Source of the DNA: a virus
Lineage: Duplodnaviria > Caudoviricetes
Reading direction: 5' to 3' (one strand)
Length of the DNA: 63,299 bases
IMG/VR virus record: IMGVR_UViG_3300025536_000016
Coordinates: 1 to 63,299 of that record
Position numbers and translations under genes: made by a program. Under the pieces are notes generated by a model. That model was not told where the DNA came from. It made no database searches and saw nothing but the letters and a program-made list of their open reading frames with translations. Numbering within the stretch: position 1 is the stretch's first letter; the number at the start of each line of letters is the position of its first letter. Positions 22,493 through 62,913 of the stretch are shown here, piece after piece.

Positions 22493-22494
22493 TC

Positions 22495-23388: not shown

Positions 23389-23416
23389 TTATTAAATCTG
23401 AGGAGAGATAAAAATA

Positions 23417-23623
23417 ATGTTCAACGGGAGCCCAGCTCAACAAAAATGTGATGAAACCTTAGAGCGATTAAAAGTCGCTCTAAGGGAATATGAGGAGGAG
23501 GGCAATCTTTTCGCAAAGAGTGTCACTATCCGGAGATTTGGGAATGGTAATTTGATGGATTTCGTAATTAATTTTACATCTGATAAAGAATCCCTGAAAG
23601 ACCAAATCAGTAAAAAGAAATGA
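23417..23623 (+). CDS. Hypothetical protein
   Basis: GAGGAG RBS; overlaps terminase start. Confidence 0.6.
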   Translation: MFNGSPAQQKCDETLERLKVALREYEEEGNLFAKSVTIRRFGNGNLMDFVINFTSDKESLKDQISKKK

Positions 23624-47257: not shown

Positions 47258-48076
47258 ATGCCAACTTATAATTCATCAGAGATTTCGACCAGAGGAGGAG
47301 AACCCGTTGAATATGTGAGAATCACAATGGGTCAGGATGTTTATCGCTATACGACTTCTCCAATCGAGGAGGAATTATTTTTTGAATTATATTCTCCTCT
47401 CGATTATCAGAGGGATGCTCCGGAATTATCTCCGGAACTTTCTCAAAATCAATTAACGATTACGATGCCGAGAAATATTGATTTTCCCTCGATATTTCAG
47501 AAAGCCGCGCCGAGACAACAGATTTTCATTATCATTTATCGAAAGCACAGAGGAGCTTCCGATTCGGATGCAATCAGTTATTGGCAGGGAGGAATTGACG
47601 GAATATCTTTCAAGGGAGATATTGCTTCGATTATCTGTTCATCTCTGGAAACCCTTTTGAAAAGAGGAGGGCTCCGTTATCGCTTCTTTGCGAAATGTCG
47701 TTTCTATTTGGCTGATGGAAGATGCCCCGTTCCAGCGACTGCGATTACAACGGAAACCGTAATTACATCCGCTTCCGGTTCTCAAGTCTCCTCGCCAGAT
47801 TTCGACGCCCTCCCTGATGGATATTTTAAGTTCGGAGAATTGACGACTCCGGAACTTGAATCCAGATTCATTGTCGACCATGTTGGAGACACGCTCACTC
47901 TCATCGCTCCATTTCCGGAGAGCCCCGTTAACAAACTTTGTAAGGCGTTAGCGGGATGTGATTATACTCCAGAAACGTGCGACTCGAAGTTCGGAGCTTG
48001 GACAGATGACGGGAGAGATTGCGGATGCTTTGATTCTATTCCGGTTGATAATTTATTCCAAACAGGGATAAGATAA
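47258..48076 (+). CDS. DUF2163/BR0599-family baseplate hub protein
   Basis: KCRFYL..C and AGCDYTPETCDSKF cysteine motifs. Confidence 0.82.
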   Translation: MPTYNSSEISTRGGEPVEYVRITMGQDVYRYTTSPIEEELFFELYSPLDYQRDAPELSPELSQNQLTITMPRNIDFPSIFQKAAPRQQIFIIIYRKHRGASDSDAISYWQGGIDGISFKGDIASIICSSLETLLKRGGLRYRFFAKCRFYLADGRCPVPATAITTETVITSASGSQVSSPDFDALPDGYFKFGELTTPELESRFIVDHVGDTLTLIAPFPESPVNKLCKALAGCDYTPETCDSKFGAWTDDGRDCGCFDSIPVDNLFQTGIR

Positions 48077-48153
48077 AGGAACTTTTTATCCTGATTCTCC
48101 ATGAAACAGTTGTATCAGATATGAAACACAAAAATGTGAAATTTTAACAGAAG

Positions 48154-48332
48154 CTTAAAAAGTGTTAAAAATTGACAATTTTCCGAAAATTAAGTAGTTG
48201 AAAATAAATGACTTGTGAATACAAAAATTTGGCTCATATAATCACATGGATTATATCGGAAAAGACGATTAGGCTCGAACTATCGAGAAAGCCTTTTGTT
48301 TTCAATCATTTAGAAGCACCAAATTTTGTTTC
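48154..48332. repeat. ~180-bp non-coding element, copy B
   Basis: Colinear with 11291-11470; extra operator at 48135-48149. Confidence 0.8.
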
Positions 48333-48362
48333 ACAAACTAGTGAAAAATAGAGGGATATTTT

Positions 48363-51300
48363 ATGCCATTTTGGATAATCGCATTGGTCATTTTAGGAGC
48401 GACAATCGCCCTCAATGCTATTATGGCTTCCCGAATAAAACCGGAGAAAAGGAAGGCTGCGGGTCTCGGAGATTTCAATTTTCCTACGGCGCAGGAGAAC
48501 CGAGAAATCGCAGTTGTCGTTGGCACCATTCGGCAAGAATCTCCTAACTCAGTTTGGGATGGAGACCTCCTCACGGTTCCCGTAAAAAAGAAAGTTCCCA
48601 ATCCTGCTTTTTTCGGATTGACGAAAAAGACTATCGAAACTGGTCAATATAGATATTTTGTCGGAATGGCTCTTGTTCTCGGTCAGGGAGATGGCGGAGT
48701 AAAATTAAGAGAATTCCAGATTGATGATAAAGTCGTCTGGTCTGGGAATATTTCCTCCGGAACATTTTCTTTTGATAAATCTCAATTATTCGGAGGAGAG
48801 GAAAAAGAGGGAGGGTACGCCGGCACCTTCGATTATTACGGCGGTTCGTGGTCTCAAATTTATAATTCATATCTTGAGGCTCAATTGGCTGCCGCAGGAA
48901 CGAAAGCTCGGAATTGGAAAGGAGTAACTTATCTTGTTCAAAAAGGCCCGTCATCAGGGAGTGTCGGAGCGAATATTCCAAATGGTTATGTTGGTCTCTC
49001 GGAAAATCTCCGGAAATATTCTTTTGTCCTCGAAAGATTCCCAGACCATTTAGGGCAGACATCTTATTCAATCGTAAATTCTACTGATGCTAATCCAGTC
49101 GAATGGGCTTATGAGCTTTTAATCAATTTCGATTATGGAGCTAATATTCCCTCCTCCCAGATTGATATTAATACTTTCAAAGCCGCTGCACAAACTTGCT
49201 TCAATGAGGGAATCGGGCTTTCCGTTCTTTGGGACACTGACAGAGATATAACAGATGTTCTTCAAGATATAAATGAATTGATTGATGGAGCAATCTACGT
49301 TGACAGAACAACCGGTCTTTGGACTTGTAAATTAGCCCGAGCGGATTATGACATCGAGGATTTATTCGTCTTTGATGATAATAATGTAAAAGAGGAGATT
49401 AATTTTTCCACGAATACTTCAAAAGATGCTCCCTCTCAAATCGTTGTTCCTTTTATTGATAAATCCCAGAATTTCAAAACGAGAGAAGCTGATTTCAAAG
49501 ATTTAGCCCAGAGGAGAAATCAGGCAGCGCCGCTTCAAAAGAAAATTGATTTCTATGGCGTGGCAAACGGAATCGAAGCTTCCCGTCTTGCTTTTCGAGA
49601 AGCACGGGTTTTCGCGTCGAATCTCCGGACGGTTACTTTCAAATCAAATCGAACAGGACATTGGGTTCGACCGCTTTCCGTCTTTCTTTATCGGAGGATT
49701 GATAGAGATACGGGAGATTTAATAGAAGTCGTATTCAGGACAGGGCGCGTCAATGATGGAGAATTAATTGAGGGTTCGATTGAAATTGAAGCTTTAGAGG
49801 ATGTCTTTTCTCTGGGAACTCTCCATTATGACCCGCCCGGTGCTACTTCATGGACAAGTCCGAATGGAGCCCCTGTAGCGGTTGCTACTCAATATCTGGG
49901 TGAACAACCTTATTTTCTTTCAGAGAATCAGATTAAATTATGGGCTTTTGGGAGACAACCGAATGGAGCCCAGAGGAATTTTGATTTCTTTGCGAAAAAG
50001 AGTGCTGATTCAGTTTATATTCCGCAAATTTATTCCAATAACTTTGCAGTTACGGGAACGATAAATTCTGATTATAATCGAACGGGCGCGGTTGATTCCT
50101 CGAATTCCCTGATTATTGCAATCTCTGAGGGATTAGGAAGATTGGCAGCTGCTTCAGCAACGGAAATCGCTTCAGAGGGAAATAATCTTTTTCTTTTCGA
50201 GGATTCCGGAGAGATTTGTGCTTTTCAATCAATTACGGATAATGGAGATGGAACTGTTACCCTGAACAATGTCTGGCGAGGGCTTTATGACACGACAACA
50301 GAAAAACATTTATCCGGAACACGAATCTGGTTCTTTTCCTATGGACAGGCTCTCCCTGAAACCGGAGTTCTTTCGGGAACGACTTATAACGGAAAATTAT
50401 TGACGAATTCCCTTCAAGGTCAACTTCCTGTTGCAAGTGCGACGGCAGCGACATTTACTCCATCGAATCGTCAAGCGCGTCCTCTCCCTCCTCAAGATGT
50501 TCAAATCGGAGGAGTCGCGAATCCGGTCGCAATACCGGCAGCCGGTTCTAATATCTCGATTTCATGGAAGAATCGAAACAGGTTAACCCAAACTCAGATG
50601 CTGAATCAGAATGATGCTTCGGTTACATCTGAAATCGGAGTTTCCATCTCGATTAAAATCTACAATGGAGCAGGAACTTTATTAGCAACAAAAAATAATA
50701 TCTCCGGAACATCTTATAGTTATTTATCGGCTGACCAGACGACTGATGGAGCCGCCGCGGAAACCGCCTTAACATTCGTTATTTATTCAATGAGGAACGG
50801 AGTGTCATCCTATCAGGCTATCCGATTTGCGACTGCAAGGCCGTCTGGGTCTCCTGCAGCGGTTCTTCCTTCATTCACTCCAATCGGAACACCTCCCTCG
50901 CCATCTGACGCGACGACGAATGTTGCGGGAGTTCCGATTTCAGGAACACCGACTTCGACAAATAATACGCTTGTTTATAATTCGACTACGGGTTATCTCG
51001 AATGGGCTCCGGGCACCGGTTCAGGTTCTGCTTGGTTCACTGGTTCAGGAGTCCCAAGTTCCGGAACAGGAGTCAATAATGATTTATATCTGAACACCGT
51101 CAATGGAGATATTTATAAAAAAGTCGCCGGAGCTTGGGGTTCTCCGATTATGAACATTATGGGAATCGCCGGAACTCCTGGCACCGCTGGGGCAACCGGA
51201 GGGGTTTGGTTCAATGGTTCCGGTGTTCCCTCTGGAGGAGTTGGGGCAAATGGAGATTACTATATAAATATCCTCAATGATGATGTTTATTATAAAGCCG

Positions 51301-51944
51301 GAGGAGCATGGGGTTTCCTGATGAATATCAGAGGAGCTCCCGGTTCGACTGGTTCTACTGGCCCGACCGGTTCGACAGGGCCGGCTGGTTCTACTGGAAC
51401 TGCCGGAGCTGATGGAAATAAAATTTACTCGGGTTCCGGAGCTCCATCCGGAGGAACGGGAGTAAATGATGACATTTATATCAGGACTTCAAACTATGAT
51501 TTATATCAAAAGATTTCCGGAACATGGACGATAATCGGAAATATCAAAGGGAATCCCGCGAATGTCCGAGCAACGGTTAATCTGACAACCGCAAGTCTTG
51601 CGAATGGAGCAACAGATTTGGGAGTCGTAACCCTCGGAAAATCATTCAGGATTACGAAGATAGTTGTTGATAGAGCCTGTAGGGTTCGATTATATTCAAC
51701 CTCAGCTCTGAGAAGTGCTGATGCTTCGAGAGCTTTCGGAGATAGAAGTTATGTCGGAACTCAACACGGAATAATCACAGATATTTTATTAGATGCGATA
51801 ACGGGATTATCATGGGTCATGTCTCCGGAGGCAATGGGAAGCAATGTTGATTCTCCCTATATAACGGATGTTTATTATTCCGTTACTAATCTGAGTGGTT
51901 CGACACATACGATAGGCATTGATATAGATAATTTGGTAGAATAA
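48363..51944 (+). CDS. Tail tip / host-specificity protein with collagen-like and GSGxP repeats
   Basis: DFNFPTAQENR, DANPVEW, CKLARADY, RGLYDT; three GSGVPS..G.N.D.Y repeats; Gly-X-Y runs. Confidence 0.82.
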   Translation: MPFWIIALVILGATIALNAIMASRIKPEKRKAAGLGDFNFPTAQENREIAVVVGTIRQESPNSVWDGDLLTVPVKKKVPNPAFFGLTKKTIETGQYRYFVGMALVLGQGDGGVKLREFQIDDKVVWSGNISSGTFSFDKSQLFGGEEKEGGYAGTFDYYGGSWSQIYNSYLEAQLAAAGTKARNWKGVTYLVQKGPSSGSVGANIPNGYVGLSENLRKYSFVLERFPDHLGQTSYSIVNSTDANPVEWAYELLINFDYGANIPSSQIDINTFKAAAQTCFNEGIGLSVLWDTDRDITDVLQDINELIDGAIYVDRTTGLWTCKLARADYDIEDLFVFDDNNVKEEINFSTNTSKDAPSQIVVPFIDKSQNFKTREADFKDLAQRRNQAAPLQKKIDFYGVANGIEASRLAFREARVFASNLRTVTFKSNRTGHWVRPLSVFLYRRIDRDTGDLIEVVFRTGRVNDGELIEGSIEIEALEDVFSLGTLHYDPPGATSWTSPNGAPVAVATQYLGEQPYFLSENQIKLWAFGRQPNGAQRNFDFFAKKSADSVYIPQIYSNNFAVTGTINSDYNRTGAVDSSNSLIIAISEGLGRLAAASATEIASEGNNLFLFEDSGEICAFQSITDNGDGTVTLNNVWRGLYDTTTEKHLSGTRIWFFSYGQALPETGVLSGTTYNGKLLTNSLQGQLPVASATAATFTPSNRQARPLPPQDVQIGGVANPVAIPAAGSNISISWKNRNRLTQTQMLNQNDASVTSEIGVSISIKIYNGAGTLLATKNNISGTSYSYLSADQTTDGAAAETALTFVIYSMRNGVSSYQAIRFATARPSGSPAAVLPSFTPIGTPPSPSDATTNVAGVPISGTPTSTNNTLVYNSTTGYLEWAPGTGSGSAWFTGSGVPSSGTGVNNDLYLNTVNGDIYKKVAGAWGSPIMNIMGIAGTPGTAGATGGVWFNGSGVPSGGVGANGDYYINILNDDVYYKAGGAWGFLMNIRGAPGSTGSTGPTGSTGPAGSTGTAGADGNKIYSGSGAPSGGTGVNDDIYIRTSNYDLYQKISGTWTIIGNIKGNPANVRATVNLTTASLANGATDLGVVTLGKSFRITKIVVDRACRVRLYSTSALRSADASRAFGDRSYVGTQHGIITDILLDAITGLSWVMSPEAMGSNVDSPYITDVYYSVTNLSGSTHTIGIDIDNLVE

Positions 51945-51945
51945 T

Positions 51946-52785
51946 ATGGCATATAATTTAACAAGAACCACGGGTTATGCTTCCAACGTGAACGCGAGTT
52001 TTCGGGCAGGGTGTCAATTAATCCATGATACATTATTAGCCGGAGGATGGATTCAAACTTCCGATACTGGGCAGATAGATATTCCAACAGCAACGGCGCC
52101 CGGTAATGCTTCCGCAGGATATGAGATTTGGCGTTCCAATGAATCCGGAGGAGGGGTTCAGGAAATTTATCTCAGGATTGATTATATCGGAGGAAATTCC
52201 GCTTTTAATCAGATGGGAATTTCAGTTATCACTGGTTGGGCATCGAATGGTTCCGGAACAATTACGACGGGAGCGACGACAAGAACAACGGTCGCTTGGA
52301 ATAGTTCTTTTTCCTCTAGTCCTCAGCCATTTTTTGTCAGTGCAGGAGAGGGATTCTTTACGTGGTGGGGTCAGGGATTCTTTGGAGGAGTGATTGTTGA
52401 TAGATTGATTGATAACGCAGGAAACAAATTGAATGAATTAGGATTCATTTATTTTTATTATCTTAACGCCGTCGGTTATCAGCAACAATCTCAGGCTTCT
52501 AGTTATTTATTGGGAGCTTATACTCAAATAACTACTATTCCTAATTTACCGACGACTTCAAGTTCTCTCCAATTTGGAAGGGCAGGAATTGGTTTCTTTT
52601 TTGTTCAGAAAGCCGGATTCTCGAATCCTCTGAAATCCGCAATCATGAATGGAGCTGCCACTTCCACGATAAGTCAATTATATGATATTGTTCAAATTAA
52701 AATGTATGGAAATTATGTTAATTACATGATAGTTGGGAGTAGTTTCGCAGGAATAAGTAGCACCGCTCTTTTGAGAACATCTTGA
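51946..52785 (+). CDS. Putative tail fibre / receptor-binding protein, paralogue 1
   Basis: Shares IQTxDTGQI, GYEIWRSN, GWxSNGSGT and GFxNP with the next gene. Confidence 0.55.
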   Translation: MAYNLTRTTGYASNVNASFRAGCQLIHDTLLAGGWIQTSDTGQIDIPTATAPGNASAGYEIWRSNESGGGVQEIYLRIDYIGGNSAFNQMGISVITGWASNGSGTITTGATTRTTVAWNSSFSSSPQPFFVSAGEGFFTWWGQGFFGGVIVDRLIDNAGNKLNELGFIYFYYLNAVGYQQQSQASSYLLGAYTQITTIPNLPTTSSSLQFGRAGIGFFFVQKAGFSNPLKSAIMNGAATSTISQLYDIVQIKMYGNYVNYMIVGSSFAGISSTALLRTS

Positions 52786-52820
52786 GGAATTTTGATAATA
52801 AATGGTAGGTAAAATAAATT

Positions 52821-53672
52821 ATGTCAGCACAAACAGTTACGAGAGCTTTAATCAATGATACTGATGCGAATTTCAGATTATGGGGCAAAGCCATTTCTGA
52901 CCAGTTCGCAGCGGGAGGGATGATTCAAACCCCCGATACGGGACAGATAAATTGGGCGACGGTTCTCACTCCGGCGGCAGTTAGCACATATCAGGGATAT
53001 GAGATTTGGCGCTCGAATGACGCCGGAGGAAGTCTCGTTAACTGGTATATGAAAATCCAGTATGGAAGTAATTCAACAGCAGCAAACCAACCTCGTGTCT
53101 CGATTCAATTCGGCTGGGGAAGTAACGGTTCCGGAACATTGACGGGAACGACTAACACTGCAATGACTCCTCAATTGAATACGACCGCGACAACGACTCT
53201 GATGAATTGCAATTTATCAGTCGGCACCGGTTGGCACATTATGGTTCTCGGAACTGTTACGAATAATAATATGTTCTTTTCCGTCGAGAGAACACGAGAT
53301 TCTGCGAATGCTTTCCAGAATGAATTATTAATCGTTGCCCAAGATGCGAACACTTGGAAATCTCAAGTTTTGACTCAAACCGTCGCCTATCCTACGGAGT
53401 CGACAACGGCTGCTGCGATTATTCCTACTGCCGCAAATTCCGTTCAGGGAGGAGTAGTCGGATTAGGGCTTCAATTCGGAAATCGAGGAGGATTTACAAA
53501 TCCCTCGATGAATCTTTTTGGAGTCAATGCAAGTCAATTAGGTTCTGCTCAAACTCAATTGACAATCAATACTTATGGAGCTAATCATAATTATATTTTG
53601 AATCCTCCGAGCATTACCGGTCTCCAATTCGCCGGTATTTCGACAACGATGATTTTACAGAGGTTTGAATAA
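52821..53672 (+). CDS. Putative tail fibre / receptor-binding protein, paralogue 2
   Basis: Same shared blocks as the previous gene. Confidence 0.55.
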   Translation: MSAQTVTRALINDTDANFRLWGKAISDQFAAGGMIQTPDTGQINWATVLTPAAVSTYQGYEIWRSNDAGGSLVNWYMKIQYGSNSTAANQPRVSIQFGWGSNGSGTLTGTTNTAMTPQLNTTATTTLMNCNLSVGTGWHIMVLGTVTNNNMFFSVERTRDSANAFQNELLIVAQDANTWKSQVLTQTVAYPTESTTAAAIIPTAANSVQGGVVGLGLQFGNRGGFTNPSMNLFGVNASQLGSAQTQLTINTYGANHNYILNPPSITGLQFAGISTTMILQRFE

Positions 53673-54022
53673 TGCCAACGGGACAAGATATTCCGACAAC
53701 TCAATTCATGGCTTCTGCGAAAGTGGCGGTTTTCAATGAGTCAATAAGTTATCTGGGATATTACCAGACATATCAGCTCGGAGTCGTAATTCCTCAATTG
53801 ACTAATATTCGAGGGACATTTCAATTCGGAGTTGTGATTCCTCAATTGAATTATAATTATGTTGCTTATGCACTCGGAGTTTATCTTGGTTGGTTCCCTT
53901 ATCCTGATGCTCCCGTTGATTTGATTATTGATGCAATCGTTACTAATAATCCATTGACGACGGGCGAGGAGGTCATTTTAACACGTGGTCAGGATTTCCC
54001 GCGCGGAGACGGAAATCGTTAA
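53672..54022 (+). CDS. Hypothetical virion-associated protein
   Basis: Internal repeat QLGVVIPQL/QFGVVIPQL. Confidence 0.55.
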   Translation: MPTGQDIPTTQFMASAKVAVFNESISYLGYYQTYQLGVVIPQLTNIRGTFQFGVVIPQLNYNYVAYALGVYLGWFPYPDAPVDLIIDAIVTNNPLTTGEEVILTRGQDFPRGDGNR

Positions 54023-54105
54023 ATTTGAATTATTTGAGAAATCAAATATAATCAAGAAGTCAAATTATAATTTGATAAATTAATTTAGAGGAGAATTAAA
54101 AAAGT

Positions 54106-54441
54106 ATGGCGGAAGTTTCAACAGAAGGAAAGACGAAACAGGCTGAGGCTCAAGCATCCTCATCCGGAGGGAATCAGGGTTCAGGGAATGCGAAAGTCGT
54201 TGACCCGAAAGTTGCAGGAGCAGAAGCTTCGGCAAAGAAAGGTTCGGATTCAAAGCCGGTTGATTATGATGAGTATGTCGCGAATCTGAATTCGGAAAAG
54301 AAAGTCGAGGGAGGAGAACAGGTTATCGCTTCCGGTCTCGATAAAGGGCGTCTCGTCAAAGATGACGGCTCGATTGATTATGAATCTCCGAGTCATTTGG
54401 AAAAGCGATTAGGCGGCGAGTTCGACACAATTCCTGAATAG
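54106..54441 (+). CDS. Hypothetical hydrophilic protein
   Basis: GAGGAG RBS. Confidence 0.65.
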   Translation: MAEVSTEGKTKQAEAQASSSGGNQGSGNAKVVDPKVAGAEASAKKGSDSKPVDYDEYVANLNSEKKVEGGEQVIASGLDKGRLVKDDGSIDYESPSHLEKRLGGEFDTIPE

Positions 54442-54515
54442 GAATAATTTTTCATTTGAGGAATCCGGAAAAAATTATCTGGATTCCTCAAACCATCAAA
54501 AGAGAGGATAATTTC

Positions 54516-55265
54516 ATGATTAAAGTTGGTTCCATAGGAAAGGATGTCATTCAATGGCAAGAGTTCCTAAAATTAAGCGGATATAATATTGGTTCATTGG
54601 ATGGGATTTTCGGCTCGAAAGTCGAATCCGCAACAAAAGAGTGGCAAAAAAAGAATGGATTAGAAGCCGATGGAATAGTTGGTTCTAACACGCTCCAGAA
54701 AGCCGGTCTTTCCGTCGTTGCTTCTCCCTCTCCGATAAATTCAAAATATTATCCTCCGAAGCCGGATTTTGCTTATCCGAATTCCACTCGGGTTCGTCAG
54801 TTATTCGGGAATTTCAGTTTCCGGAATAATAAAGGAAAAATTGAAATCCTCGATAACTGGGCAGGAAAGAATGTCGTTAAAGTTCGGATTCCTGAATTAA
54901 TCGGAGTTTATGGAGCTCCGAAAGATGGAATGATTGAGTTTCATAAATTGGGAGAGAATCAGCTCAAAGGGGCTTTCTCTGAAATTGGAGAAAAAGGTCT
55001 TGCCGATAGAATCATTTCATTTGGCGGAAGCTTTTATCCTCGATTCATCAGGGGTTCAGTAACAACTCTCTCCAATCATTCATGGGCGACGGCTTTGGAT
55101 TTGAATGCTCCGGAAAATTGGCTGGGTGAACGTCCCGCGTCAATCGGAGAAAAAGGTTCCCTCCTCGAATTGGTTCCAATCTTCAATAAGTGGGGCTTTT
55201 TCTGGGGCGGACATTATAACAAGCGTCTCGACGGGATGCATTTTGAATTGGCTAAATTACTATAA
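54516..55265 (+). CDS. Endolysin: peptidoglycan-binding domain plus M15 peptidase
   Basis: DGIFGSKVESATKEWQ..NGLEADGIVG; R...SNHSWATALD...DGMHFE. Confidence 0.92.
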   Translation: MIKVGSIGKDVIQWQEFLKLSGYNIGSLDGIFGSKVESATKEWQKKNGLEADGIVGSNTLQKAGLSVVASPSPINSKYYPPKPDFAYPNSTRVRQLFGNFSFRNNKGKIEILDNWAGKNVVKVRIPELIGVYGAPKDGMIEFHKLGENQLKGAFSEIGEKGLADRIISFGGSFYPRFIRGSVTTLSNHSWATALDLNAPENWLGERPASIGEKGSLLELVPIFNKWGFFWGGHYNKRLDGMHFELAKLL

Positions 55266-55281
55266 GAGAGGAAATAAAATC

Positions 55282-55560
55282 ATGGATGGATTAAAAGATA
55301 TTGGCATCAATCTCGGCACGACAATCGGAAAACAAGTTCTCGTTTCCGAATTGAGAAAGAAAGGAAGAAAGCTTGTCGAAAAGGACACGAATAAAACTGG
55401 TTCTGATGATTTCGGAGGGCAAACTCTTCTCGCGGTCGCTGATGCCGTCGAGGCAATCGAATTTACGGAGAATCCGAAATCCCTGATGAATATCGGCAGA
55501 GCTTTTGAAGCAGCAGGTAAAAGGATTCAGGAAGAAGCGAAGAAAGCCGGCGTCCAATAA
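55282..55560 (+). CDS. Hypothetical protein
   Basis: ATG 55282 after GAGGA. Confidence 0.6.
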   Translation: MDGLKDIGINLGTTIGKQVLVSELRKKGRKLVEKDTNKTGSDDFGGQTLLAVADAVEAIEFTENPKSLMNIGRAFEAAGKRIQEEAKKAGVQ

Positions 55561-55604
55561 AAATTTTTCGGTATTTTCAAATGTTTAGAGGAGGAACGAT
55601 TTAT

Positions 55605-55847
55605 ATGTCATTCAATTTATCTTTTACGGGCTCAAAGAAAGGAGTCCTGAAAGCAATCGAGGATGCTCCGGACAACGGGCAACCTCAAGTTCCGGAAGTG
55701 AAAGCACTTCTCAAATCGGAAGTCGAACAGATGCCCGAGAATTCCTATAACAATGGGATTTCAATCACAGCCTCTGGTCATGCGGATAATCAAAATCGCT
55801 ATATGAATATTGAAATCCGGATGGTCAAGCTTTCAATGGAGGAATAA
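55605..55847 (+). CDS. Hypothetical protein
   Basis: ATG 55605 after GAGGAGG. Confidence 0.6.
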   Translation: MSFNLSFTGSKKGVLKAIEDAPDNGQPQVPEVKALLKSEVEQMPENSYNNGISITASGHADNQNRYMNIEIRMVKLSMEE

Positions 55848-55852
55848 AATCC

Positions 55853-56218
55853 GTGCAGGATAATCAAGTTCTCTACACTCTCAGGAACATTCCGCCGTGG
55901 CTTCCGGTCTTGTTCCTGATTGTCCTTTTTGTGATTCTTTATATCATTTATAAAGACCCATTCTTTAAGGATATAATCAGCGGGACTTTAATCGTCGCAT
56001 TTTTGACTTCAATCGGAATTAAATTAGCTCCGACACAGAGTCCGAAACTCGACACTCAATCTGGAGATATTAACATAAATCCGATTCCCAAAAATCCGGC
56101 AACGGAATCATCTCCAGAATCAAAACCTTTGAATGATTTATCAGAGGAAGAAATCCGAAATCTTCACCACGGATTGGAAAATCTGGAAGATAAAGGAAAT
56201 GAATCAGGAACGGAATAA
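55853..56218 (+). CDS. Putative holin (2 TM helices)
   Basis: Two hydrophobic helices near the endolysin. Confidence 0.5.
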   Translation: MQDNQVLYTLRNIPPWLPVLFLIVLFVILYIIYKDPFFKDIISGTLIVAFLTSIGIKLAPTQSPKLDTQSGDININPIPKNPATESSPESKPLNDLSEEEIRNLHHGLENLEDKGNESGTE

Positions 56219-56726
56219 AATACGATTGTGCTCTATTAGAAGGCAATGCAAGGGGGTTGTGGTTATGAATGAGGAAGAACTTATCAGATTGATTTTTAGA
56301 TTTTTGTGGACCATGTTAATTTTCGGTTGCGCAATTCTATTAAGAAAAATAGTTAATCTTTTGGACAATAAAATTGTCTCCTCGATTTTCGGCTTCTTCT
56401 TTCGATGTCTCGGAGTATATGGAGGGATGATGCTCATCGCATGGATTTTTGATGTTTACTTTGGATTCAAGGTGTTTATCATCTCTCCTATCGTTAATTT
56501 TATTTGCTGGTCGTTTCCTTTTGTTTATCTCTCATATCTTTATTTGAATCTGAAAAATCAACCAAAAGAAATTCAAAATACAGATGGAGATGAAATCCCA
56601 AACCCCAAATATTTAAGCAAGGAAATGATTACATTTCACGCGGAGGAATTAATTAAAGCCCTCCAGCTTCAGGATTCGATTATCACGAAAATAAAACGGG
56701 ATATGAAAATGCGTTTTTTGAGGTAG
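56199..56726 (+). CDS. Multi-pass membrane protein (lysis region)
   Basis: Three hydrophobic segments; start uncertain (56199 or 56265). Confidence 0.55.
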   Translation: MNQERNKIRLCSIRRQCKGVVVMNEEELIRLIFRFLWTMLIFGCAILLRKIVNLLDNKIVSSIFGFFFRCLGVYGGMMLIAWIFDVYFGFKVFIISPIVNFICWSFPFVYLSYLYLNLKNQPKEIQNTDGDEIPNPKYLSKEMITFHAEELIKALQLQDSIITKIKRDMKMRFLR

Positions 56727-56736
56727 AATTTCTATT

Positions 56737-57246
56737 ATGACAGCGCTCCTGTTATTTTTATTTCAAGATAGTAGCTCTTTGAGCTCAACTCAGGAATCTA
56801 TGATTGAAAAAATCTTTATTCTCGTGGCTACTGCTGCAATAACTGGAGTTTCCACTTATCTCGCCACTCGTAGGAAAAATGAAGCTGATATTCAGAAGCT
56901 CGTTGCGGAAACAATCAAGACTTATGTCGAAGCAATGAATCAGATTCAGCAAATCAATAAGGAACTTCGTGCCTCCATCAAAGAACTAATGACGGATGTC
57001 GAAACTTGGCATAAATCCTATTTGAAAACGGATGAATTATTATCCGAAGCGACGAGAGGATTGTCAGATTGTTTAGATTCAAAGGATTGTCCCGAATGTG
57101 AGGAACTTTTAACGGAAGCTCTTGATTCCCTCCTCCAGATTCCGCCCCTTTTGAAAAATGTTCCGGATTCAGAACATTTTGCTTCCTCCATCATTAAGCT
57201 AAGCACAGAGATTTCCAGAAAAATAAATCGGAATCTCCCAGAATAA
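56737..57246 (+). CDS. Membrane-anchored coiled-coil protein (holin/spanin-like)
   Basis: TM IFILVATAAITGVSTYLA then RRK and coiled coil. Confidence 0.55.
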   Translation: MTALLLFLFQDSSSLSSTQESMIEKIFILVATAAITGVSTYLATRRKNEADIQKLVAETIKTYVEAMNQIQQINKELRASIKELMTDVETWHKSYLKTDELLSEATRGLSDCLDSKDCPECEELLTEALDSLLQIPPLLKNVPDSEHFASSIIKLSTEISRKINRNLPE

Positions 57247-57659: not shown

Positions 57660-57711
57660 GAACGAAACCTCCCTCCGGAGGTCATGGAGTTAATCTCCAT
57701 CTGATGAGTTC
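57660..57711 (+). ncRNA. Type II hammerhead ribozyme HH2 (predicted cleavage after 57683)
   Basis: GAAC-GAAA-CCTCC/GGAGG-TC^-ATGGAG/CTCCAT-CTGATGA-GTTC. Confidence 0.92.
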
Positions 57712-57739
57712 AGAACCAAATAAATCGAGGATAAAGAAT

Positions 57740-59269
57740 ATGTGCTTAGAAAATCAATTAATCAAAGATTTCAATAAAGGAATCAAAGTTTCGACCCCGT
57801 TATTTTCCATCAATTGCTTCGACCCTGAAATGCTCCTGAAAAATCTTTCGGAAAAATTAGTTCCTATCATCAACGATTTCGGCTCGAAGGAAAGACCCAT
57901 GATTCAATGGGATTGTGTTCGAGGATGGCAGGCAAGAAATAAATCCGCAATCGAAGCAATCGGAATGGCGCTGAATGGCGCGGAATTGGAGGACACATTC
58001 AATCCAGTCTCCTCCCTGAAATTGGCTCAGAATCTGCCGGAGGGTTCGATTCTCTTTCTTTTGAATGGTCATCTTTATTTCAAGGATGATTTTTCTTTTC
58101 TTCAAGCGTTCTGGAATCTCCGAGACACGTTCAAGGCAACGAATCGAGCCTGTGTGATTCTGACGAACTCTTTTATCCTTCCTCTGGAAATCCAGAACGA
58201 CGTTCTCATACTCGACGAGAAGTTACCTGATGAGGAGGATTTGAGGAATATCATCAAGGAATTGGCGGAGGAAAACGAAATCAAATTATCTGAGGAAGAT
58301 ATTGAAAAAGGAGTCGTTGCTCTGAAAGGATTGAGCGCTTTTCCTGCGGAACAATCCGTCGCCCTCTCTCTGGGAAAATCCGGACTGGATATTGAAAATC
58401 TTTGGAGCCGGAAAATCCAGAAAATCAATGAAACTCCCGGTCTCTCGGTTCACAAAGACGGTGCGAAATTTGAAAATCTCGGAGGATTGGAAGAAATCAA
58501 GAATCGGTTCTCTCGAATCATCAAAGGAAAAAAATCTCCAAAAGTGATTGTCTGGATTGATGAAATCGAAAAGGCAATGGCGGGAGCGGGAACGGAATCC
58601 TCCGGAACAACTATGGACCAGCTCGGAGTCCTCCTCAATGAATTCGTAGAAAAGGATTATTCGGGTTCGGTCTTCGTAGGAGTTCCGGGCGCCGCTAAAT
58701 CCGCCCTCGCGAAAGCAATCGGAAATGAGGCTGAAGTGATAACCATCAAATTAGACCTCGGAGAAATGAAAGGACAATTCGTTGGATTATCGGAGGAAAG
58801 AATCCGGACGGGAATGAAAGTTATTGAAGCAGTCGGAGGATTCGGAGGGGCTTTCTTTGTGGCAACCTCGAATGACATCTCCTCGATTAAACCGGAACTC
58901 CTCCGGAGATTCAAAAAAGGAGTCTGGTTCTTCGATTTACCGACACGAGAAGAAAGAGAAGTCATCTGGAAAATTTATTTGAAAAAATATGAATTCGACA
59001 TCAACCTCGTGAAATCAATCAGATTCGACGAAGGTTGGACGGGAGCGGAAATCGAGAACTGCTGCATGACGGCATGGGAGGAAGAAATTTCCATCGAGGA
59101 AGCTTCAAAATCAATCATTCCAGTTTCGGTCTCCGGAAAGGAACAGGTCGAAAGATTGAGGAACGAGGCGAATGGAAAATATTCCTCGACGAATTATGCG
59201 GGGGTTTATAATTCCTCAATGAATGATGTGAAATTCATCCAGCCGAAACGACGAATCGCGACGGACTAA
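57740..59269 (+). CDS. Ycf46-like AAA+ ATPase with Walker B preceding Walker A
   Basis: LGGLEEIK...IVWIDEIEKAMAG...FVGVPGAAKS...FFVATSN...FFDLP...WTGAEIE. Confidence 0.85.
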   Translation: MCLENQLIKDFNKGIKVSTPLFSINCFDPEMLLKNLSEKLVPIINDFGSKERPMIQWDCVRGWQARNKSAIEAIGMALNGAELEDTFNPVSSLKLAQNLPEGSILFLLNGHLYFKDDFSFLQAFWNLRDTFKATNRACVILTNSFILPLEIQNDVLILDEKLPDEEDLRNIIKELAEENEIKLSEEDIEKGVVALKGLSAFPAEQSVALSLGKSGLDIENLWSRKIQKINETPGLSVHKDGAKFENLGGLEEIKNRFSRIIKGKKSPKVIVWIDEIEKAMAGAGTESSGTTMDQLGVLLNEFVEKDYSGSVFVGVPGAAKSALAKAIGNEAEVITIKLDLGEMKGQFVGLSEERIRTGMKVIEAVGGFGGAFFVATSNDISSIKPELLRRFKKGVWFFDLPTREEREVIWKIYLKKYEFDINLVKSIRFDEGWTGAEIENCCMTAWEEEISIEEASKSIIPVSVSGKEQVERLRNEANGKYSSTNYAGVYNSSMNDVKFIQPKRRIATD

Positions 59270-59465: not shown

Positions 59466-59975
59466 ATGGAAAACACGAACGAAATCAAATCAACCGAAAC
59501 AACAAAGGAAATCATCTTTTTAATGGGTTTACCCGCAGCAGGAAAATCGACCGAGGGTCAGAAAGCTTTTGGTTCAACACACACCTTCATTGATTGCGAC
59601 GAAATCAAAAAATCTCATCCTGATTATAATCCGGCAGAAGCTTTCAAAGTTCACGAATGGTCGAAAATGGAAGAAGAAAAAGTTTGGCTGAAAGCCTTGA
59701 CGACGGACGGACAATTTGTCCTCGATGGAACGGGAACGAACGCAGAAAAAATGGTGCGAAGAATCAATCAGGCGAAGGCGATGGGATTCGAGACAAAATT
59801 ATTCTACGTGACATGCACTCTGGAAACCTCCATCCGACGGGCTCTCAAACGGGTTCGCCAGGTTCCTCTCGAAATGATTCAGGAAAAAGCCCTGAACATC
59901 GCGACTTCCTTTGAAATCGTTGCAAAATATGTTGACACGATTCAGGTGGTCGACAACAACACCGACACCAAATAA
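59466..59975 (+). CDS. P-loop kinase (zeta-toxin / AAA_33 / PNK-like)
   Basis: FLMGLPAAGKST, IDCDEIK, FVLDGTG, RALKR.R. Confidence 0.8.
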   Translation: MENTNEIKSTETTKEIIFLMGLPAAGKSTEGQKAFGSTHTFIDCDEIKKSHPDYNPAEAFKVHEWSKMEEEKVWLKALTTDGQFVLDGTGTNAEKMVRRINQAKAMGFETKLFYVTCTLETSIRRALKRVRQVPLEMIQEKALNIATSFEIVAKYVDTIQVVDNNTDTK

Positions 59976-60406: not shown

Positions 60407-60442
60407 AGATTGAAAAGATGGAGGAAAATTAAAAAAAATATT

Positions 60443-60886
60443 ATGTCACACGTCGCAACTATAAAAATGGAATTCAAGGATTTAGAATGCCTCAAACGGG
60501 CAGCTAAAAAATTGGGTCTGGAATTCAGGGAGAATCAAAAGAATTATAAATGGTACGGGACTCATGTTGGAGATTATCCGGTGCCGGAAGGATTCACCAA
60601 AGAGGACCTCGGAAAATGTGACCACGCGCTCTCCATTCCTCAAACAGAGGATAATTCCGGACGAGCTTATGAAGTCGGTGTGGTCGAAAATAAAACCGGA
60701 AAAGGTTACACTCTCCTCTGGGATTTCTGGCAGGGAGGATTCGGACTCCGGCAGAAAATCGGAGACAACGGAATTCAGCTCCAAAAGGAATACGCCGCAC
60801 AAGTCGCGGAAAAACACCTGAAAATTCAGGGTTATCAAGTCCGGAGAAAGATTCAGGGAAACAATATTTTAGTGGAGGGATATTAA
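60443..60886 (+). CDS. DUF1257 (Ycf35-like) protein
   Basis: MSHVATIKMEFKDLECLKRAAKKLG...YEVGV...LLWDFW...LQKEYA. Confidence 0.8.
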   Translation: MSHVATIKMEFKDLECLKRAAKKLGLEFRENQKNYKWYGTHVGDYPVPEGFTKEDLGKCDHALSIPQTEDNSGRAYEVGVVENKTGKGYTLLWDFWQGGFGLRQKIGDNGIQLQKEYAAQVAEKHLKIQGYQVRRKIQGNNILVEGY

Positions 60887-60888
60887 TC

Positions 60889-61095
60889 ATGGCGAATCAA
60901 AAAGGAGTTATTACGGTCAATATCTCCGGAGAAAAAGATGTCGAGGTCGAAGTCTCGATTTCCGGAATCTCCGGAGGGAAATGCAAAGATATTACTCGAA
61001 ATATCGAACGGGCTCTGGGAACAACGACGAAGGACACGGAAACGGAAGAAATGAAAGGGAGGAAGATTTCAAATGTTAATCAGAATCGAGCCTAA
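60889..61095 (+). CDS. DUF2997-like protein
   Basis: GISGGKCKDITRNIERALG. Confidence 0.78.
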   Translation: MANQKGVITVNISGEKDVEVEVSISGISGGKCKDITRNIERALGTTTKDTETEEMKGRKISNVNQNRA

Positions 61096-61330
61096 TCAAG
61101 ATGGCGAAATCGAAATGAAAATGATTTATTCTGATTCAATGCGCGGGATTCTGGAGGAGGGTTCTTCCTCCATCTCTCGGGCATCTCATGTTGAACCGAA
61201 TCCGGATAATTCTTGGTCAGCGGATATGAGCCCAATCGGAGGAGAATCTTTGAATGGCTTCGAGACACGAGAGGATGCGTTGAAAGCTGAAGTAAAATGG
61301 ATTAATGATAACTATCTCACGAGGGCATAA
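61073..61330 (+). CDS. Conserved hypothetical protein of the DUF1257/DUF2997 neighbourhood
   Basis: ISRASHVEP...WSADMSPIGG...FETREDALKAEVKWI. Confidence 0.7.
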   Translation: MLIRIEPNQDGEIEMKMIYSDSMRGILEEGSSSISRASHVEPNPDNSWSADMSPIGGESLNGFETREDALKAEVKWINDNYLTRA

Positions 61331-61632: not shown

Positions 61633-61670
61633 CATTTCTCATTGACTTCTTATGGAGCCTGTGAGATGAT
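61620..61670 (+). promoter_or_regulatory. Operator plus putative early promoter
   Basis: TGTAA-aaatt-TAACA, TTGACT (61642), TG-n-GATGAT (61665). Confidence 0.6.
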
Positions 61671-61719
61671 GCTTTCAGGGAGAAATCCCAGAGACAGAAA
61701 TAAATTTGAGGATAAAAAA

Positions 61720-62913
61720 ATGACGAATATTCAGAATCAAAATAATAAATCGAAATCAGTTCTTTTCGTTTCCTTGACGGGCGATTTGAACGCTGGCGCA
61801 AAAAGAATCGGAAACAATCCGGAACTCCTGAAACAAATCCCTGATGATTTGATTCCGGACTTGAAATCGAAGTTCGAGAAATATAATCCTTTGACGGAAA
61901 AGGGAATCGAACGAAAAGGGTTGTGCATGGAAAATATCAATCTCTATCAAAAATCTTTGGATGAGATTAAATCCGGATTGGTTACGACTCCGGCGAAAGT
62001 TTTCGACGCCGTTTCCGAAGCAGAAAATGTTGTTCAAAACACCGTCGTTCTGGAATTACACCTCGGCAGACCTTCTTTCGGAAAAGTTGTCAAGAATGAT
62101 GAACTCGAACACGCATACGGGATTGGAGAGGCTCTCCCTGAAACCCTCCGGAGTTGGGCGAAAATCATCGACACGAAGCACCTGAAACCTTATGACGCGG
62201 CTCGGAGCGGATTCATCGGCTGGTTGAAAGCGAAATCAATGCCCTCGGGTTTCCTCGCGAACGGGATGTATTTAGTTCCTCTCTCCCTGATTTCCCAGAT
62301 TGACGAGAAGATTGAAAAATTCCGCGAAGAACAGGACGCCTTCCTCAATGAATTTGAAGCGAAATACGAGGACATCAAACTCGAAGCGAAGGAAAAGAAT
62401 GCGAAGATTTATCGAGAATCAAATTATCTTCCTTTCTCGGAAATCCGGAAATTCTACAAGATTCAGGCAAAATATTTGACCTTGAATGTGCCCGCCGCCC
62501 TCGAAAAAGTCAACAAAGATTTGTTCGAGAAAGAAAAAGAAAAATCCAAACAGATGTGGGCAGACGCTGCAACCGATATTCGGGATGGATTGAGAGCGGG
62601 ATTCAAAGGATTAATCGACCACTTCGTTTCCAAACTCGGAAAGGATGATAAAGGAAAGAAACTGGTTTTTCACGGCTCGACGGTCGATAAACTGAAAGAT
62701 TTCGTTACGACCTTTCAGGATAGAAACTTAACGAACGACTCGGAACTGGCGGAACTGGCGAACCAAGCGAAAGCCCTGATTGAAAACGTCGACCCGAACT
62801 CCATCCGGAAAGATGACACCGTCCGGACAAATCTGGAGGAATCATTCAAAAAGATTCAAGAAGTTTCGGAAACCCTAATCGTTGCGAAAACCCGAAAAAT
62901 CCAGATGGATTAA
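61720..62913 (+). CDS. DUF3150-like helical protein
   Basis: KIIDTKHL...GMYLVP...YLPFSEIRKFY...FQDRNLTNDSELAEL. Confidence 0.65.
   Translation: MTNIQNQNNKSKSVLFVSLTGDLNAGAKRIGNNPELLKQIPDDLIPDLKSKFEKYNPLTEKGIERKGLCMENINLYQKSLDEIKSGLVTTPAKVFDAVSEAENVVQNTVVLELHLGRPSFGKVVKNDELEHAYGIGEALPETLRSWAKIIDTKHLKPYDAARSGFIGWLKAKSMPSGFLANGMYLVPLSLISQIDEKIEKFREEQDAFLNEFEAKYEDIKLEAKEKNAKIYRESNYLPFSEIRKFYKIQAKYLTLNVPAALEKVNKDLFEKEKEKSKQMWADAATDIRDGLRAGFKGLIDHFVSKLGKDDKGKKLVFHGSTVDKLKDFVTTFQDRNLTNDSELAELANQAKALIENVDPNSIRKDDTVRTNLEESFKKIQEVSETLIVAKTRKIQMD

What the first reader, a model, noticed from the sequence alone, without database searches (positions are those of the whole stretch)
58470..58950. AAA+ ATPase with the Walker A and Walker B blocks swapped in sequence
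Seen: the order is GGLEEIK, PKVIVWIDEIEKAMAG (Walker B plus helix), GSVFVGVPGAAKS (Walker A, AK for GK), LDLGEMKGQFVGLSEERIR, FFVATSN (sensor 1), FFDLP. Established: Ycf46/classical AAA domains run Walker A, LD.G..VGESE, Walker B, sensor 1. The two blocks are cleanly transposed in one intact ORF with the motifs preserved. Inference: a topologically rewired but probably active ATPase, a rare non-circular permutation in P-loop NTPases.
Basis: partly seen in the sequence, partly recalled or inferred. Interest (0 to 1): 0.75.

Follow-up and report, generated by a model that had tools for sequence, protein, structure and literature searches.

The report
Phage AAA ATPase with swapped Walker blocks
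A phage gene encodes an ATP-driven machine protein in which two internal building blocks of the catalytic core sit in the opposite order along the chain from all described relatives, yet the catalytic residues and apparently the three-dimensional fold are kept, and large numbers of other phages share this rearranged form.

Summary
ORF 57704..59269 (+, 521 aa) reads GGLEEIK, then the Walker B strand and helix (279-319), then the Walker A module (320-381), then sensor 1 and the arginines.

It is not a misassembly. All 339 aligned relatives keep this order, as do 80 of 80 loci from bacterial genomes or MAGs. An independent contig from a run that is probably the source sample carries the gene with no differences.

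Canonical-order relatives exist (Aeromonas phage HJ05, Streptococcus satellite Javan368). They share the N-terminal domain and the neighbouring DUF1257 and DUF2997 genes, so this is a derived branch of Ycf46-like classical AAA ATPases.

AlphaFold2 is confident (pLDDT 93.7). The C-terminal domain superposes on NVL, Rix7 and spastin AAA domains (Z about 16). My coevolution analysis puts the moved strand between sensor-1 strand β4 and β2, which gives the canonical 5-1-4-3-2 sheet.

E287, K332, N390 and R402 are invariant, and D286 is Asp in 335 of 339. The protein is therefore a rewired but probably active ATPase.

Not shown: model coordinates (not available to me), ATPase activity, oligomeric state and biological role. 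No description of this permutation turned up in the papers I could search.

The parts
57704..59269 (+). Whole ORF, 521 aa: permuted Ycf46-like AAA ATPase (the start may be M13 at 57740)
57752..58453 (+). N-terminal α/β domain (about residues 17-250) with no P-loop; looks like a degenerate D1-type AAA domain
   Evidence: AF2 secondary structure. The whole model matches the type II AAA proteins NVL, Rix7 and p97 over both domains (Foldseek E about 1e-13, TMq up to 0.54). It is homologous to the N-domain of canonical relatives (BLAST E 5e-10 against HJ05). The D1-like reading is inference.
58481..58537 (+). GGLEEIK and helix α0 (260-278), in the usual place at the start of the AAA domain
   Evidence: Coevolving pairs L262-A331, L259-A334, F269-S322 and I265-F410 place α0 against α1, β1 and β5.
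58538..58660 (+). Moved module (279-319): Walker B strand VIVWIDE (D286, E287), the loop 291-301 in the place of pore loop 2, and helix α3 (302-316)
   Evidence: Strand-pair coevolution WB-β4 7.07 and WB-β2 3.25.
58661..58846 (+). Walker A module (320-381): β1, P-loop GVPGAAKS (K332, S333), α1, β2, the pore-loop-1 position KGQFVG (356-361), and α2
58853..58873 (+). Sensor-1 strand FFVATSN (384-390; T388, N390)
   Evidence: Top coevolving pairs I288-A387 and V281-G378/G379.
58892..58942 (+). ELLRRF (R401, R402: presumed arginine fingers) and β5 FFDLP
   Evidence: R402 in 339 of 339; R401 in 324 of 339
58946..59218 (+). Helical lid (about 415-505) with GWTGAEIE
60410..60886 (+). Conserved neighbour, DUF1257 (Ycf35)-like
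   Evidence: Pfam E 8.6e-4, below the curated cut-off. The cluster c2/c5 relation is supported by hhalign at 92.8%. Found in 69 of 80 IMG/VR loci by HMM.
60889..61095 (+). Conserved neighbour, DUF2997
   Evidence: Pfam 34.7 bits, above the cut-off of 24.1. Found in 74 of 80 IMG/VR loci and 67 of 80 genome loci.
61073..61330 (+). Conserved small neighbour (cluster c4, 85 aa), no family
   Evidence: 38 of 80 loci
61642..62913 (+). Conserved neighbour (cluster c1), DUF3150-like; the start is probably at 61720
   Evidence: Pfam E 4e-4, below the cut-off. Atlas nearest clusters carry DUF3150 in 13-18% of members. On the same strand in 70 of 81 loci by clustering and in 75 of 80 by HMM.

Best explanation
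The gene encodes a phage member of the Ycf46-like branch of classical AAA ATPases. Two adjacent sequence modules of its catalytic core have changed places: β3 (Walker B) with α3, and β1 (Walker A) with α1, β2 and α2.

The chain now runs α0, β3, α3, β1, α1, β2, α2, β4, α4, β5, lid. In space the parallel sheet still has the order 5-1-4-3-2. Asp286/Glu287 at the end of the moved strand therefore lie beside the P-loop (Lys332, Ser333) and sensor-1 Asn390. The loops at the positions of pore loops 1 and 2 keep their places. Arg401/Arg402 can act on a neighbouring subunit.

What is shown:
- the order along the chain;
- its conservation;
- the strand neighbourhoods, from coevolution;
- a confident AAA-like model.

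What is inferred:
- that all crossovers stay right-handed;
- that the protein hydrolyses ATP;
- that it forms a ring and remodels or unfolds a protein substrate.

It probably works with the small proteins encoded beside it (DUF1257/Ycf35-like, DUF2997, an 85-aa protein and a DUF3150-like protein) as adaptors or substrates during infection. The rearrangement looks like a single old event in a lineage that then spread widely in phages and prophages.
For: Order and homology
-.
- MAFFT places the Walker B module as an insertion before β1 in permuted proteins and between α2 and β4 in canonical ones.

Spread
- 1145 hits at E<=1e-3 among 8000 scored; the 120 listed have 86-98% coverage at 40-100% identity.
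- 1083 50%-identity cluster representatives at E<=1e-30; only the best 150 were seen.
- 342 of 573 candidate stretches in IMG/VR encode relatives, and 355 of 600 in genomes.

Order kept
- 339 of 339 aligned.
- 80 of 80 genome loci.
- 120 of 120 of the canonical comparison set have the usual order.

Junction lengths fixed
- α0 to β3 segment: 15 residues in 326 of 339.
- α3 to β1 segment: 6 residues in 335 of 339.
- α2 to β4 segment: 7-8 residues in 333 of 339.

Fold
- AF2 whole protein: pLDDT 93.7, pTM 0.89, with strand 281-285 at pLDDT about 97.
- AF2 domain alone: pLDDT 92.2.
- VIA-align: NVL Z 16.5, 2.9 Å over 205 residues; Rix7 Z 16.2, 2.2 Å over 194; spastin Z 16.0, 2.4 Å over 194. About 40-50 residues of the domain are left unaligned, which is the size of the moved module, as expected from a sequential aligner.

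Strand placement, independent of AF2 (mean-field DCA on 361 sequences)
- Summed couplings: WB-β4 7.07, β1-β4 3.92, WB-β2 3.25, β1-β5 2.36. All six non-neighbour pairs are <=1.41.
- In the first run on 339 sequences the null 99.9th percentile was 4.33 and the 99th 2.39.
- The two strongest of 24,531 pairs are I288-A387 and V281-G379.
- E289-P328 links the Walker B end to the P-loop.

Catalytic residues
- Conserved as listed.
- Inteins sit in the P-loop and at sensor 1 in five homologues.

Same gene module with both forms
- HJ05, canonical form: ORF67 DUF1257 (2.4e-8) and ORF68 DUF2997 (1.4e-8).
- Tunturi_3, permuted form: gp102, gp101, gp99 and gp96 match clusters c2, c3, c4 and c1.

Single split
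- Permuted and canonical sets separate on one branch, support 1.0, length 1.25.
Against: - I could not obtain model coordinates, so the strand order in the AF2 model was not read directly. It rests on coevolution and on the secondary-structure string.
- DCA used an effective 257-269 sequences, which is few. The WB-β2 signal is moderate (minimum 2.10 in 15 subsamples). The four canonical neighbour pairs were the top four of ten in only 8 of 15 subsamples; the weak one was β1-β5.
- DCA cannot tell contacts within a chain from contacts between chains.
- AF2 was trained on canonical AAA structures and may impose that fold.
- This protein has Ala in place of the last Gly of the P-loop (the family splits Ala 190, Gly 121).
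- The arginine region is RRF instead of RxGRFD.
- No ATPase, oligomer or substrate data exist.
- The tree used only one canonical clade plus Javan368 and is unrooted, so neither the direction nor the uniqueness of the event is proven.
- HMM counts for neighbours in the IMG/VR loci were made with models built from those same loci.
Confidence: 0.78

Rival explanations
1. The moved Walker B module inserts into the sheet of a neighbouring subunit (a 3D domain swap in the ring) rather than into its own chain. The active site would then be built from two chains in a new way.
For: Coevolution cannot separate contacts within and between chains. The module sits on the linker side of the domain, next to the N-terminal domain.
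Against: The AF2 monomer models fold it in cis with pLDDT above 90. The α3-to-β1 segment is a fixed 6 residues in 335 of 339. That suits a step to a strand two positions along the same sheet, but would be short for reaching another subunit (inference).
Confidence: 0.07
2. The upstream hhhhDE is only a look-alike. The domain lacks a working Walker B and is a nucleotide-binding but non-hydrolysing (pseudo-ATPase) scaffold.
For: No activity data exist. The P-loop is slightly deviant in this protein (Ala331).
Against: The block is homologous, not merely similar, to the Walker B/α3 block of canonical relatives (E 1.6e-6 over 32 residues, including WIDEIEK). E287 is in 339 of 339 and D286 in 335 of 339. 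The strand couples most strongly with β4, where Walker B belongs. Sensor 1 and the arginine are invariant, which is hard to explain without hydrolysis.
Confidence: 0.08
3. Assembly or sequencing artefact in this contig.
For: None found. The only run that holds the sequence is probably the sample of origin.
Against: The same order is seen in hundreds of independent assemblies, in a cultured phage (Tunturi_3 gp103) and in a complete Nitrospira moscoviensis chromosome. A Logan contig of 63,217 bases carries the gene with 0 differences at depth 17.
Confidence: 0.01

Closest known systems
Canonical-order phage and bacterial Ycf46-like AAA ATPases (for example Aeromonas phage HJ05 WEV89366, Streptococcus satellite Javan368 QBX09687; JGI label 'SpoVK/Ycf46/Vps4 family AAA+-type ATPase')
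   Same: - About 500-550 aa, with the same N-terminal domain (BLAST E 5e-10 and 2e-6).
- The same signatures: GGLE.. and WIDEIEK in Javan368 (DEVDK in HJ05), VG.SE, VATxN, ELLR, and a DLP turn after β5 in Javan368.
- The same neighbours: DUF1257, DUF2997 and the c4 protein in HJ05.
- Atlas clusters automatically named ycf46 align at TM 0.70-0.79.
   Different: - Walker A comes before Walker B there (120 of 120); here the two modules are exchanged.
- About 23% identity over the shared columns.
- The stretch between α0 and β1 seen in Javan368 is missing.
- The arginine region reads RRF here and RRGRFD in Javan368.
- The DUF3150-like partner was not found within 47500-57000 of HJ05.
Type II classical AAA ATPases (NVL, Rix7, p97/Cdc48, VAT)
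   Same: Best structural matches for the whole model and for the C-terminal domain (Z 14.8-16.5). Two stacked α/β domains. Sensor 1, arginine fingers, and the hydrophobic-Val-Gly motif at the pore loop.
   Different: The first domain here has no P-loop. The second is permuted. Sequence identity is 22-25%. No N-terminal cofactor-binding domain of the p97 kind was seen.
Circularly permuted GTPases (YlqF/RsgA type; recalled from the literature, no call)
   Same: A P-loop NTPase family in which the nucleotide-binding motifs occur in a non-standard order along the chain while the fold is kept.
   Different: There the permutation is circular (G4-G5-G1-G2-G3) and Walker B still follows Walker A. Here both ends of the domain stay in place, two internal blocks are exchanged, and Walker B comes first.

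Membership tests
Classical AAA ATPase domain (Pfam PF00004) | Score above the curated Pfam cut-off | tested here: met
   47.2 bits against a cut-off of 21.2, but in two stretches; the best is 323-374 on profile positions 2-53.
Classical AAA ATPase domain (Pfam PF00004) | Walker A GxxxxGK[ST] | tested here: met
   GVPGAAKS. K332 and S/T333 are in 339 of 339. The last Gly is Ala here; in the family it is Ala 190, Gly 121.
Classical AAA ATPase domain (Pfam PF00004) | Walker B hhhhDE, sensor-1 Asn, arginine finger in the second region of homology | tested here: met
   VIVWIDE, N390 and R402 are conserved. The function of these residues was not assayed.
Classical AAA ATPase domain (Pfam PF00004) | Sequence order: Walker A, then Walker B, then sensor 1 | tested here: not met
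   Walker B (286/287) lies 45 residues before Walker A (332).
Classical AAA ATPase domain (Pfam PF00004) | α/β core with sheet order 5-1-4-3-2 plus a helical lid | tested here: met
   Coevolution gives the neighbours β5-β1-β4-WB-β2. VIA-align Z 16.5 to NVL. Coordinates were not inspected.
Classical AAA ATPase domain (Pfam PF00004) | Ring-shaped oligomer with ATP hydrolysis | not testable with these tools
   Needs purified protein.
Ycf46-like AAA ATPases | Shared N-terminal domain and overall architecture | tested here: met
   BLAST of residues 1-254 against HJ05 gives E 5e-10. Atlas structural rows named ycf46 have TM 0.70-0.79 (the names are automatic).
Ycf46-like AAA ATPases | Colinear alignment of the AAA domain with family members | tested here: not met
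   The two blocks align in crossed order.
Ycf46-like AAA ATPases | Association with DUF1257 (Ycf35) and DUF2997 genes | tested here: met
   Window: DUF2997 above the cut-off, DUF1257 below it. HJ05: both above the cut-off. The pairing of duf2997 with ycf35 in cyanobacteria is stated in passages of PMC4284462. That this association defines the Ycf46 family is my recollection.
Circularly permuted P-loop NTPases | Order explained by joining the ends and cutting elsewhere | tested here: not met
   α0 stays first, and β4, β5 and the lid stay last. Only the internal blocks are exchanged.

The most novel reading that the evidence does not exclude
This is the first natural case in which the ASCE/AAA+ catalytic core is rewired by a non-circular exchange of internal modules, so that Walker B comes before Walker A. 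It arose once from a Ycf46-like ancestor and is fully functional. It has displaced the canonical form in a conserved phage cassette (AAA, DUF1257, DUF2997, DUF3150-like) across at least hundreds, and probably more than a thousand, phage and prophage lineages. That would show that neither the folding nor the mechanics of a ring ATPase depends on the usual chain order of the core strands.
Probability: 0.55. Interest if true: 0.75.

Novelty: new variant of a known kind. Interest (0 to 1): 0.66.

Why it matters
The order of the Walker A, Walker B and sensor-1 elements is treated as a constant of AAA+ and other ASCE P-loop proteins, and motif-based annotation depends on it. A large, evidently successful family that breaks this order while keeping the sheet and the catalytic residues matters in three ways:

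- It is a natural experiment on how far chain connectivity can change in a Rossmann-like α/β fold.
- It is a ready-made pair (permuted and canonical forms in the same gene cassette) for studying folding and the coupling of ATP hydrolysis to pore loops.
- It warns profile-based tools: Pfam sees only fragments here, 47 bits in two pieces against about 100 bits for the canonical relatives.

It also draws attention to an uncharacterised but widely conserved phage cassette related to the plastid and cyanobacterial Ycf46/Ycf35 genes, whose function is still unknown.

Tried and rejected
- **Complex prediction**, two copies of residues 17-510 with alignment A2: no verdict (score 0.01, mark 0.42). It says nothing on oligomerisation.
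- **The search of earlier findings** was not open.
- **Model coordinates** are not in the script box, so strand order could not be read from the model. I used coevolution instead.
- **Strict motif regex**. Of 267 stored proteins it found B<A in 230, missed a motif in 34, and gave A<B in 3. Two of those are the canonical proteins and one (P0102) has a spurious upstream P-loop-like match. The alignment-based count replaces it.
- **Relics of a second Walker B module, or variable junctions**: none in 339.
- **PADLOC**: only generic AAA similarity to IetA on the C-terminal part; nothing for the neighbours.
- **PHROGs**: phrog_8638, unknown function, in 4 stretches.
- **NCBIfam**: only partial hits, far below the cut-offs.
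- **Sequencing runs**: one DNA holder, probably the source sample; no RNA holder listed.
- **Literature**: no paper describing an AAA+ protein with Walker B before Walker A, and nothing on the function of DUF3150, DUF1257 or DUF2997. The phrase search returned only unrelated 'walker' papers. Subscription journals and supplements are outside what I could search.
- **Second IMG/VR scan**: mostly the same contigs again; 22 new sequences.
- **Pfam on cluster c5, c6, c4 and c15 representatives**: no hits. c5 and c6 were tied to c2 and c3 only by hhalign (92.8% and 83.1%).
Full report
**What is there**

The window is an IMG/VR virus record of 63,299 bases. All long ORFs lie on the + strand. PHROG searches find DNA polymerase, a clamp-like processivity factor, primase-helicase, large terminase, major head protein, tape measure, tail proteins and an endolysin. 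It is the genome of a tailed phage.

The finding lies in ORF 57704..59269 (521 aa, P0001).
- GGLEEIK, 260-266
- PKVIVWIDEIEKAMAG, 279-294
- GSVFVGVPGAAKS, 321-333
- LDLGEMKGQFVGLSEERIR, 350-368
- FFVATSN, 384-390
- ELLRRF, 398-403
- FFDLP, 409-413

**Is the order really exchanged?**

phmmer against PDB sequences aligns residues 320-376 with the Walker A to α2 part of VAT and p97. It aligns 364-457 with the part that follows Walker B (α3, sensor 1, lid). Nothing lies between them. Pfam AAA matches in two pieces at 47 bits.

A tblastn search of cultured phage records gave three hits. One is Tunturiibacter phage Tunturi_3 gp103, which has the same order as the window. The other two are Aeromonas phage HJ05 ORF65 and Streptococcus satellite Javan368 ORF2. 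Both have the usual order and match Pfam AAA end to end at 97 and 101 bits.

BLAST of five consecutive segments of P0001 against these two proteins shows the crossing directly:
- 282-311 matches Javan368 315-346 (ILWIDEIEKGLSGA..., E 1.6e-6).
- 321-377 matches Javan368 255-311 (E 1.7e-10).
- The N-terminal domain and everything from 384 onward are colinear.

MAFFT treats the 41-residue Walker B module as an insertion before β1 in the permuted proteins and as an insertion between α2 and β4 in the canonical ones. This is an exchange of two adjacent internal blocks. It is not a circular permutation.

**Not an artefact, and not rare**

- The search for homologous proteins gave 1145 hits among 8000 scored. 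The 120 listed cover 86-98% of the query at 40-100% identity.
- The exhaustive representative search gave 1083 50%-identity clusters at E<=1e-30. I saw only the best 150, all at E<=1e-91.
- IMG/VR holds 342 relatives among 573 candidate stretches. The species-representative genomes hold 355 among 600, a capped list. These are mostly Acidobacteriota, Nitrospirota and Armatimonadota MAGs, plus two copies in the complete Nitrospira moscoviensis chromosome.
- I aligned 339 members: the stored proteins of at most 640 aa, without the duplicate P0002 and the two canonical proteins, plus the ORFs of 80 IMG/VR loci. Every one has the permuted order.
- All 80 genome loci have it as well.
- The junctions are of fixed length. 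No member keeps a second Walker B module.
- A Logan contig of the only run that holds the sequence carries the gene with no differences at depth 17. That run is probably the source sample, so it is not independent.

**Is the fold kept?**

AlphaFold2 on a 149-sequence alignment gives pLDDT 93.7 and pTM 0.89. The elements of the C-terminal domain, in chain order, are:
- helix 263-274
- strand 281-285
- helices 288-297 and 302-316
- strand 320-326
- helix 332-342
- strand 347-350
- helix 360-378
- strand 383-389
- helix 397-402
- strand 407-410
- a helical lid

A second model of residues 250-521 alone agrees (pLDDT 92.2). It superposes on classical AAA domains: NVL Z 16.5 (2.9 Å, 205 residues), Rix7 Z 16.2 (2.2 Å, 194) and spastin Z 16.0 (2.4 Å, 194). 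About 40-50 residues of the structured domain stay unaligned. That is the size of the moved module, which a sequential aligner cannot place.

The whole-protein model matches the two-domain AAA proteins NVL, Rix7 and p97. The P-loop-less N-terminal domain therefore looks like a degenerate first AAA domain. That reading is inference.

I had no access to the coordinates, so I tested the position of the moved strand with coevolution, which does not depend on AF2. The method was mean-field DCA with APC. The first run used 339 sequences and columns 250-475 (effective number 269). The second used 361 sequences and columns 255-415 (effective number 257).

- The two strongest of 24,531 pairs are I288-A387 and V281-G379, that is, Walker B strand against sensor-1 strand.
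- Summed along the best parallel register, the strand pairs score WB-β4 7.07, β1-β4 3.92, WB-β2 3.25 and β1-β5 2.36.
- All six non-neighbour pairs score 1.41 or less.
- The null for random diagonals, from the first run, is 2.39 at the 99th percentile and 4.33 at the 99.9th.
- In 15 subsamples WB-β4 never fell below 4.58, nor WB-β2 below 2.10. The four expected neighbours were the top four of ten pairs in 8 of 15 subsamples; the weak one is β1-β5.

This gives the order β5-β1-β4-WB-β2, the canonical 5-1-4-3-2 sheet. Other strong pairs fit the canonical packing:
- α3 with α2: K317-E375, E313-E375, V309-I367.
- α3 with α4: L307-K396.
- The start of α3 with the pore-loop-1 region: D305-G353, T303-K356.
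- α0 with α1, β1 and β5.
- E289 with P328 of the P-loop.

By the usual handedness rule for β-α-β units, the new connections (β3 to β1, β2 to β4) run in the same direction across the sheet as the old ones. All crossovers can therefore stay right-handed. This is my inference.

**Is it active?**

Activity is not tested. The evidence in favour is conservation and intein position:
- E287, K332, S/T333, N390 and R402 are in 339 of 339, D286 in 335 and R401 in 324.
- The pore-loop position reads [L/F/I/Y]-V-G, with G361 invariant.
- Five homologues carry intein-like insertions exactly in the P-loop (P0170, P0252) or at sensor 1 (P0134, P0138, P0264). One shows a Cys start and an HN|C end. From general knowledge, inteins favour essential catalytic sites.

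**Context and likely role**

In 81 loci (80 IMG/VR loci plus the window), BLAST clustering finds one protein of about 316 aa on the same strand in 70 of them. It is weakly DUF3150-like (E 4e-4 and 3e-4, below the cut-off). Smaller conserved neighbours are also present.

In the window the neighbours are:
- 60410-60886: DUF1257/Ycf35-like, E 8.6e-4, below the cut-off.
- 60889-61095: DUF2997, above the cut-off.
- 61073-61330: an 85-aa protein.
- 61642-62913: the DUF3150-like protein.

Two variants of the DUF1257-like and DUF2997-like proteins are linked by hhalign at 92.8% and 83.1%. HMMs built from these clusters find the following (these models were built from the same IMG/VR loci):

| Neighbour | 80 IMG/VR loci | 80 genome loci, 3 kb flanks |
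|---|---|---|
| DUF3150-like | 75 | 47 |
| DUF1257-like | 69 | 19 |
| DUF2997-like | 74 | 67 |
| All three | 68 | not counted |

The canonical-order AAA of phage HJ05 is followed by DUF1257 (2.4e-8), DUF2997 (1.4e-8) and the small c4 protein. In Tunturi_3 the permuted gp103 is followed by gp102, gp101, gp99 and gp96, which match all four clusters. The permuted and canonical enzymes therefore serve in the same cassette.

Passages of PMC4284462 record a duf2997-ycf35-fed7 cluster in cyanobacteria. Atlas clusters automatically named ycf46, one of them mostly cyanobacterial, align with this protein at TM 0.70-0.79.

My reading is an ATP-driven ring that remodels or unfolds one or a few specific proteins, with the small neighbours as adaptors or substrates. 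This is inference from membership of the classical AAA group. Nothing here shows the substrate. PADLOC gives no link to defence systems beyond generic AAA similarity.

**Origin**

I built a FastTree on 438 shared columns from 70 permuted and 70 canonical proteins. The canonical sample came from 120 canonical-set proteins: the stored hits of 450-640 aa, with the query P0265, plus Javan368. The tree separates the two sets on one branch (support 1.0, length 1.25). This is consistent with a single event. The tree is unrooted and the canonical sample is narrow. No intermediates were seen.

**Comparison with what is known, and novelty**

The protein works like, and descends from, Ycf46-like classical AAA ATPases. 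It fails one defining feature of the family as usually written, the sequence order of the motifs. The only motif-order change in P-loop NTPases that I can recall is the circularly permuted GTPases. That change is of another kind, and there Walker B still follows Walker A.

Seven literature searches found no description of this arrangement. I read passages of five papers only. Subscription journals and supplements were not searchable.

The Atlas mentions Pfam PF30482, which I could not inspect. Curators may therefore already know the family, which is why I hold the novelty claim at about one half.

I rate it a new variant of a known kind. It is of real interest for protein-fold evolution and AAA+ mechanism, and its biological role is still open.

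Noticed in passing
Homologues P0170, P0252 (break near query residue 330) and P0134, P0138, P0264 (break near 379-391): These homologues are 653-896 aa long and carry large insertions exactly in the P-loop or at sensor 1. P0134 reads FIAT|C...VHN|CNS, which is intein-like. The canonical-order P0271 carries Pfam Intein_splicing and HNH_3.
   Followed up: partly
window 1-63299 compared with the Logan contig of run X1: The contig (63,217 bases) holds the gene at 22276-23841, while the window holds it at 57704. The two assemblies therefore start at different points. The genome is probably circular or circularly permuted and near complete, although CheckV estimates 59%.
   Followed up: no
window 59466-59975 (+): A 169-aa P-loop kinase of the Zeta_toxin/AAA_33 type (E 9.7e-15) lies between the AAA gene and the DUF1257 gene. 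It forms no cluster of four or more members among the 80 related loci.
   Followed up: partly
L003 7624-8652 (Tunturiibacter phage Tunturi_3 gp96): It is annotated 'HNH endonuclease' but matches the DUF3150-like partner family at E 1.2e-89. The annotation may be wrong, or the family may contain a nuclease-like part.
   Followed up: no
L183 and L192 (Nitrospira moscoviensis NSP M-1 chromosome): There are two separate copies of the permuted ATPase in one complete bacterial chromosome, presumably in prophages.
   Followed up: no
window 54456-55265 and 56737-57246 (+): An endolysin-like gene, and downstream a 169-aa protein with weak matches to unknown-function PHROGs. The AAA cassette begins right after this presumed lysis region.
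   Followed up: no
P0040 (633 aa) and P0109 (545 aa): Family members that JGI labels 'adenylate kinase family enzyme'. P0040 has an N-terminal extension of about 120 aa before the conserved domain.
   Followed up: no
Atlas rows for P0001: The Atlas assigns Pfam PF30482 to the aligned part of the ycf46-named clusters. That family is absent from the Pfam copy searched here, so its scope is unknown to me.
   Followed up: no
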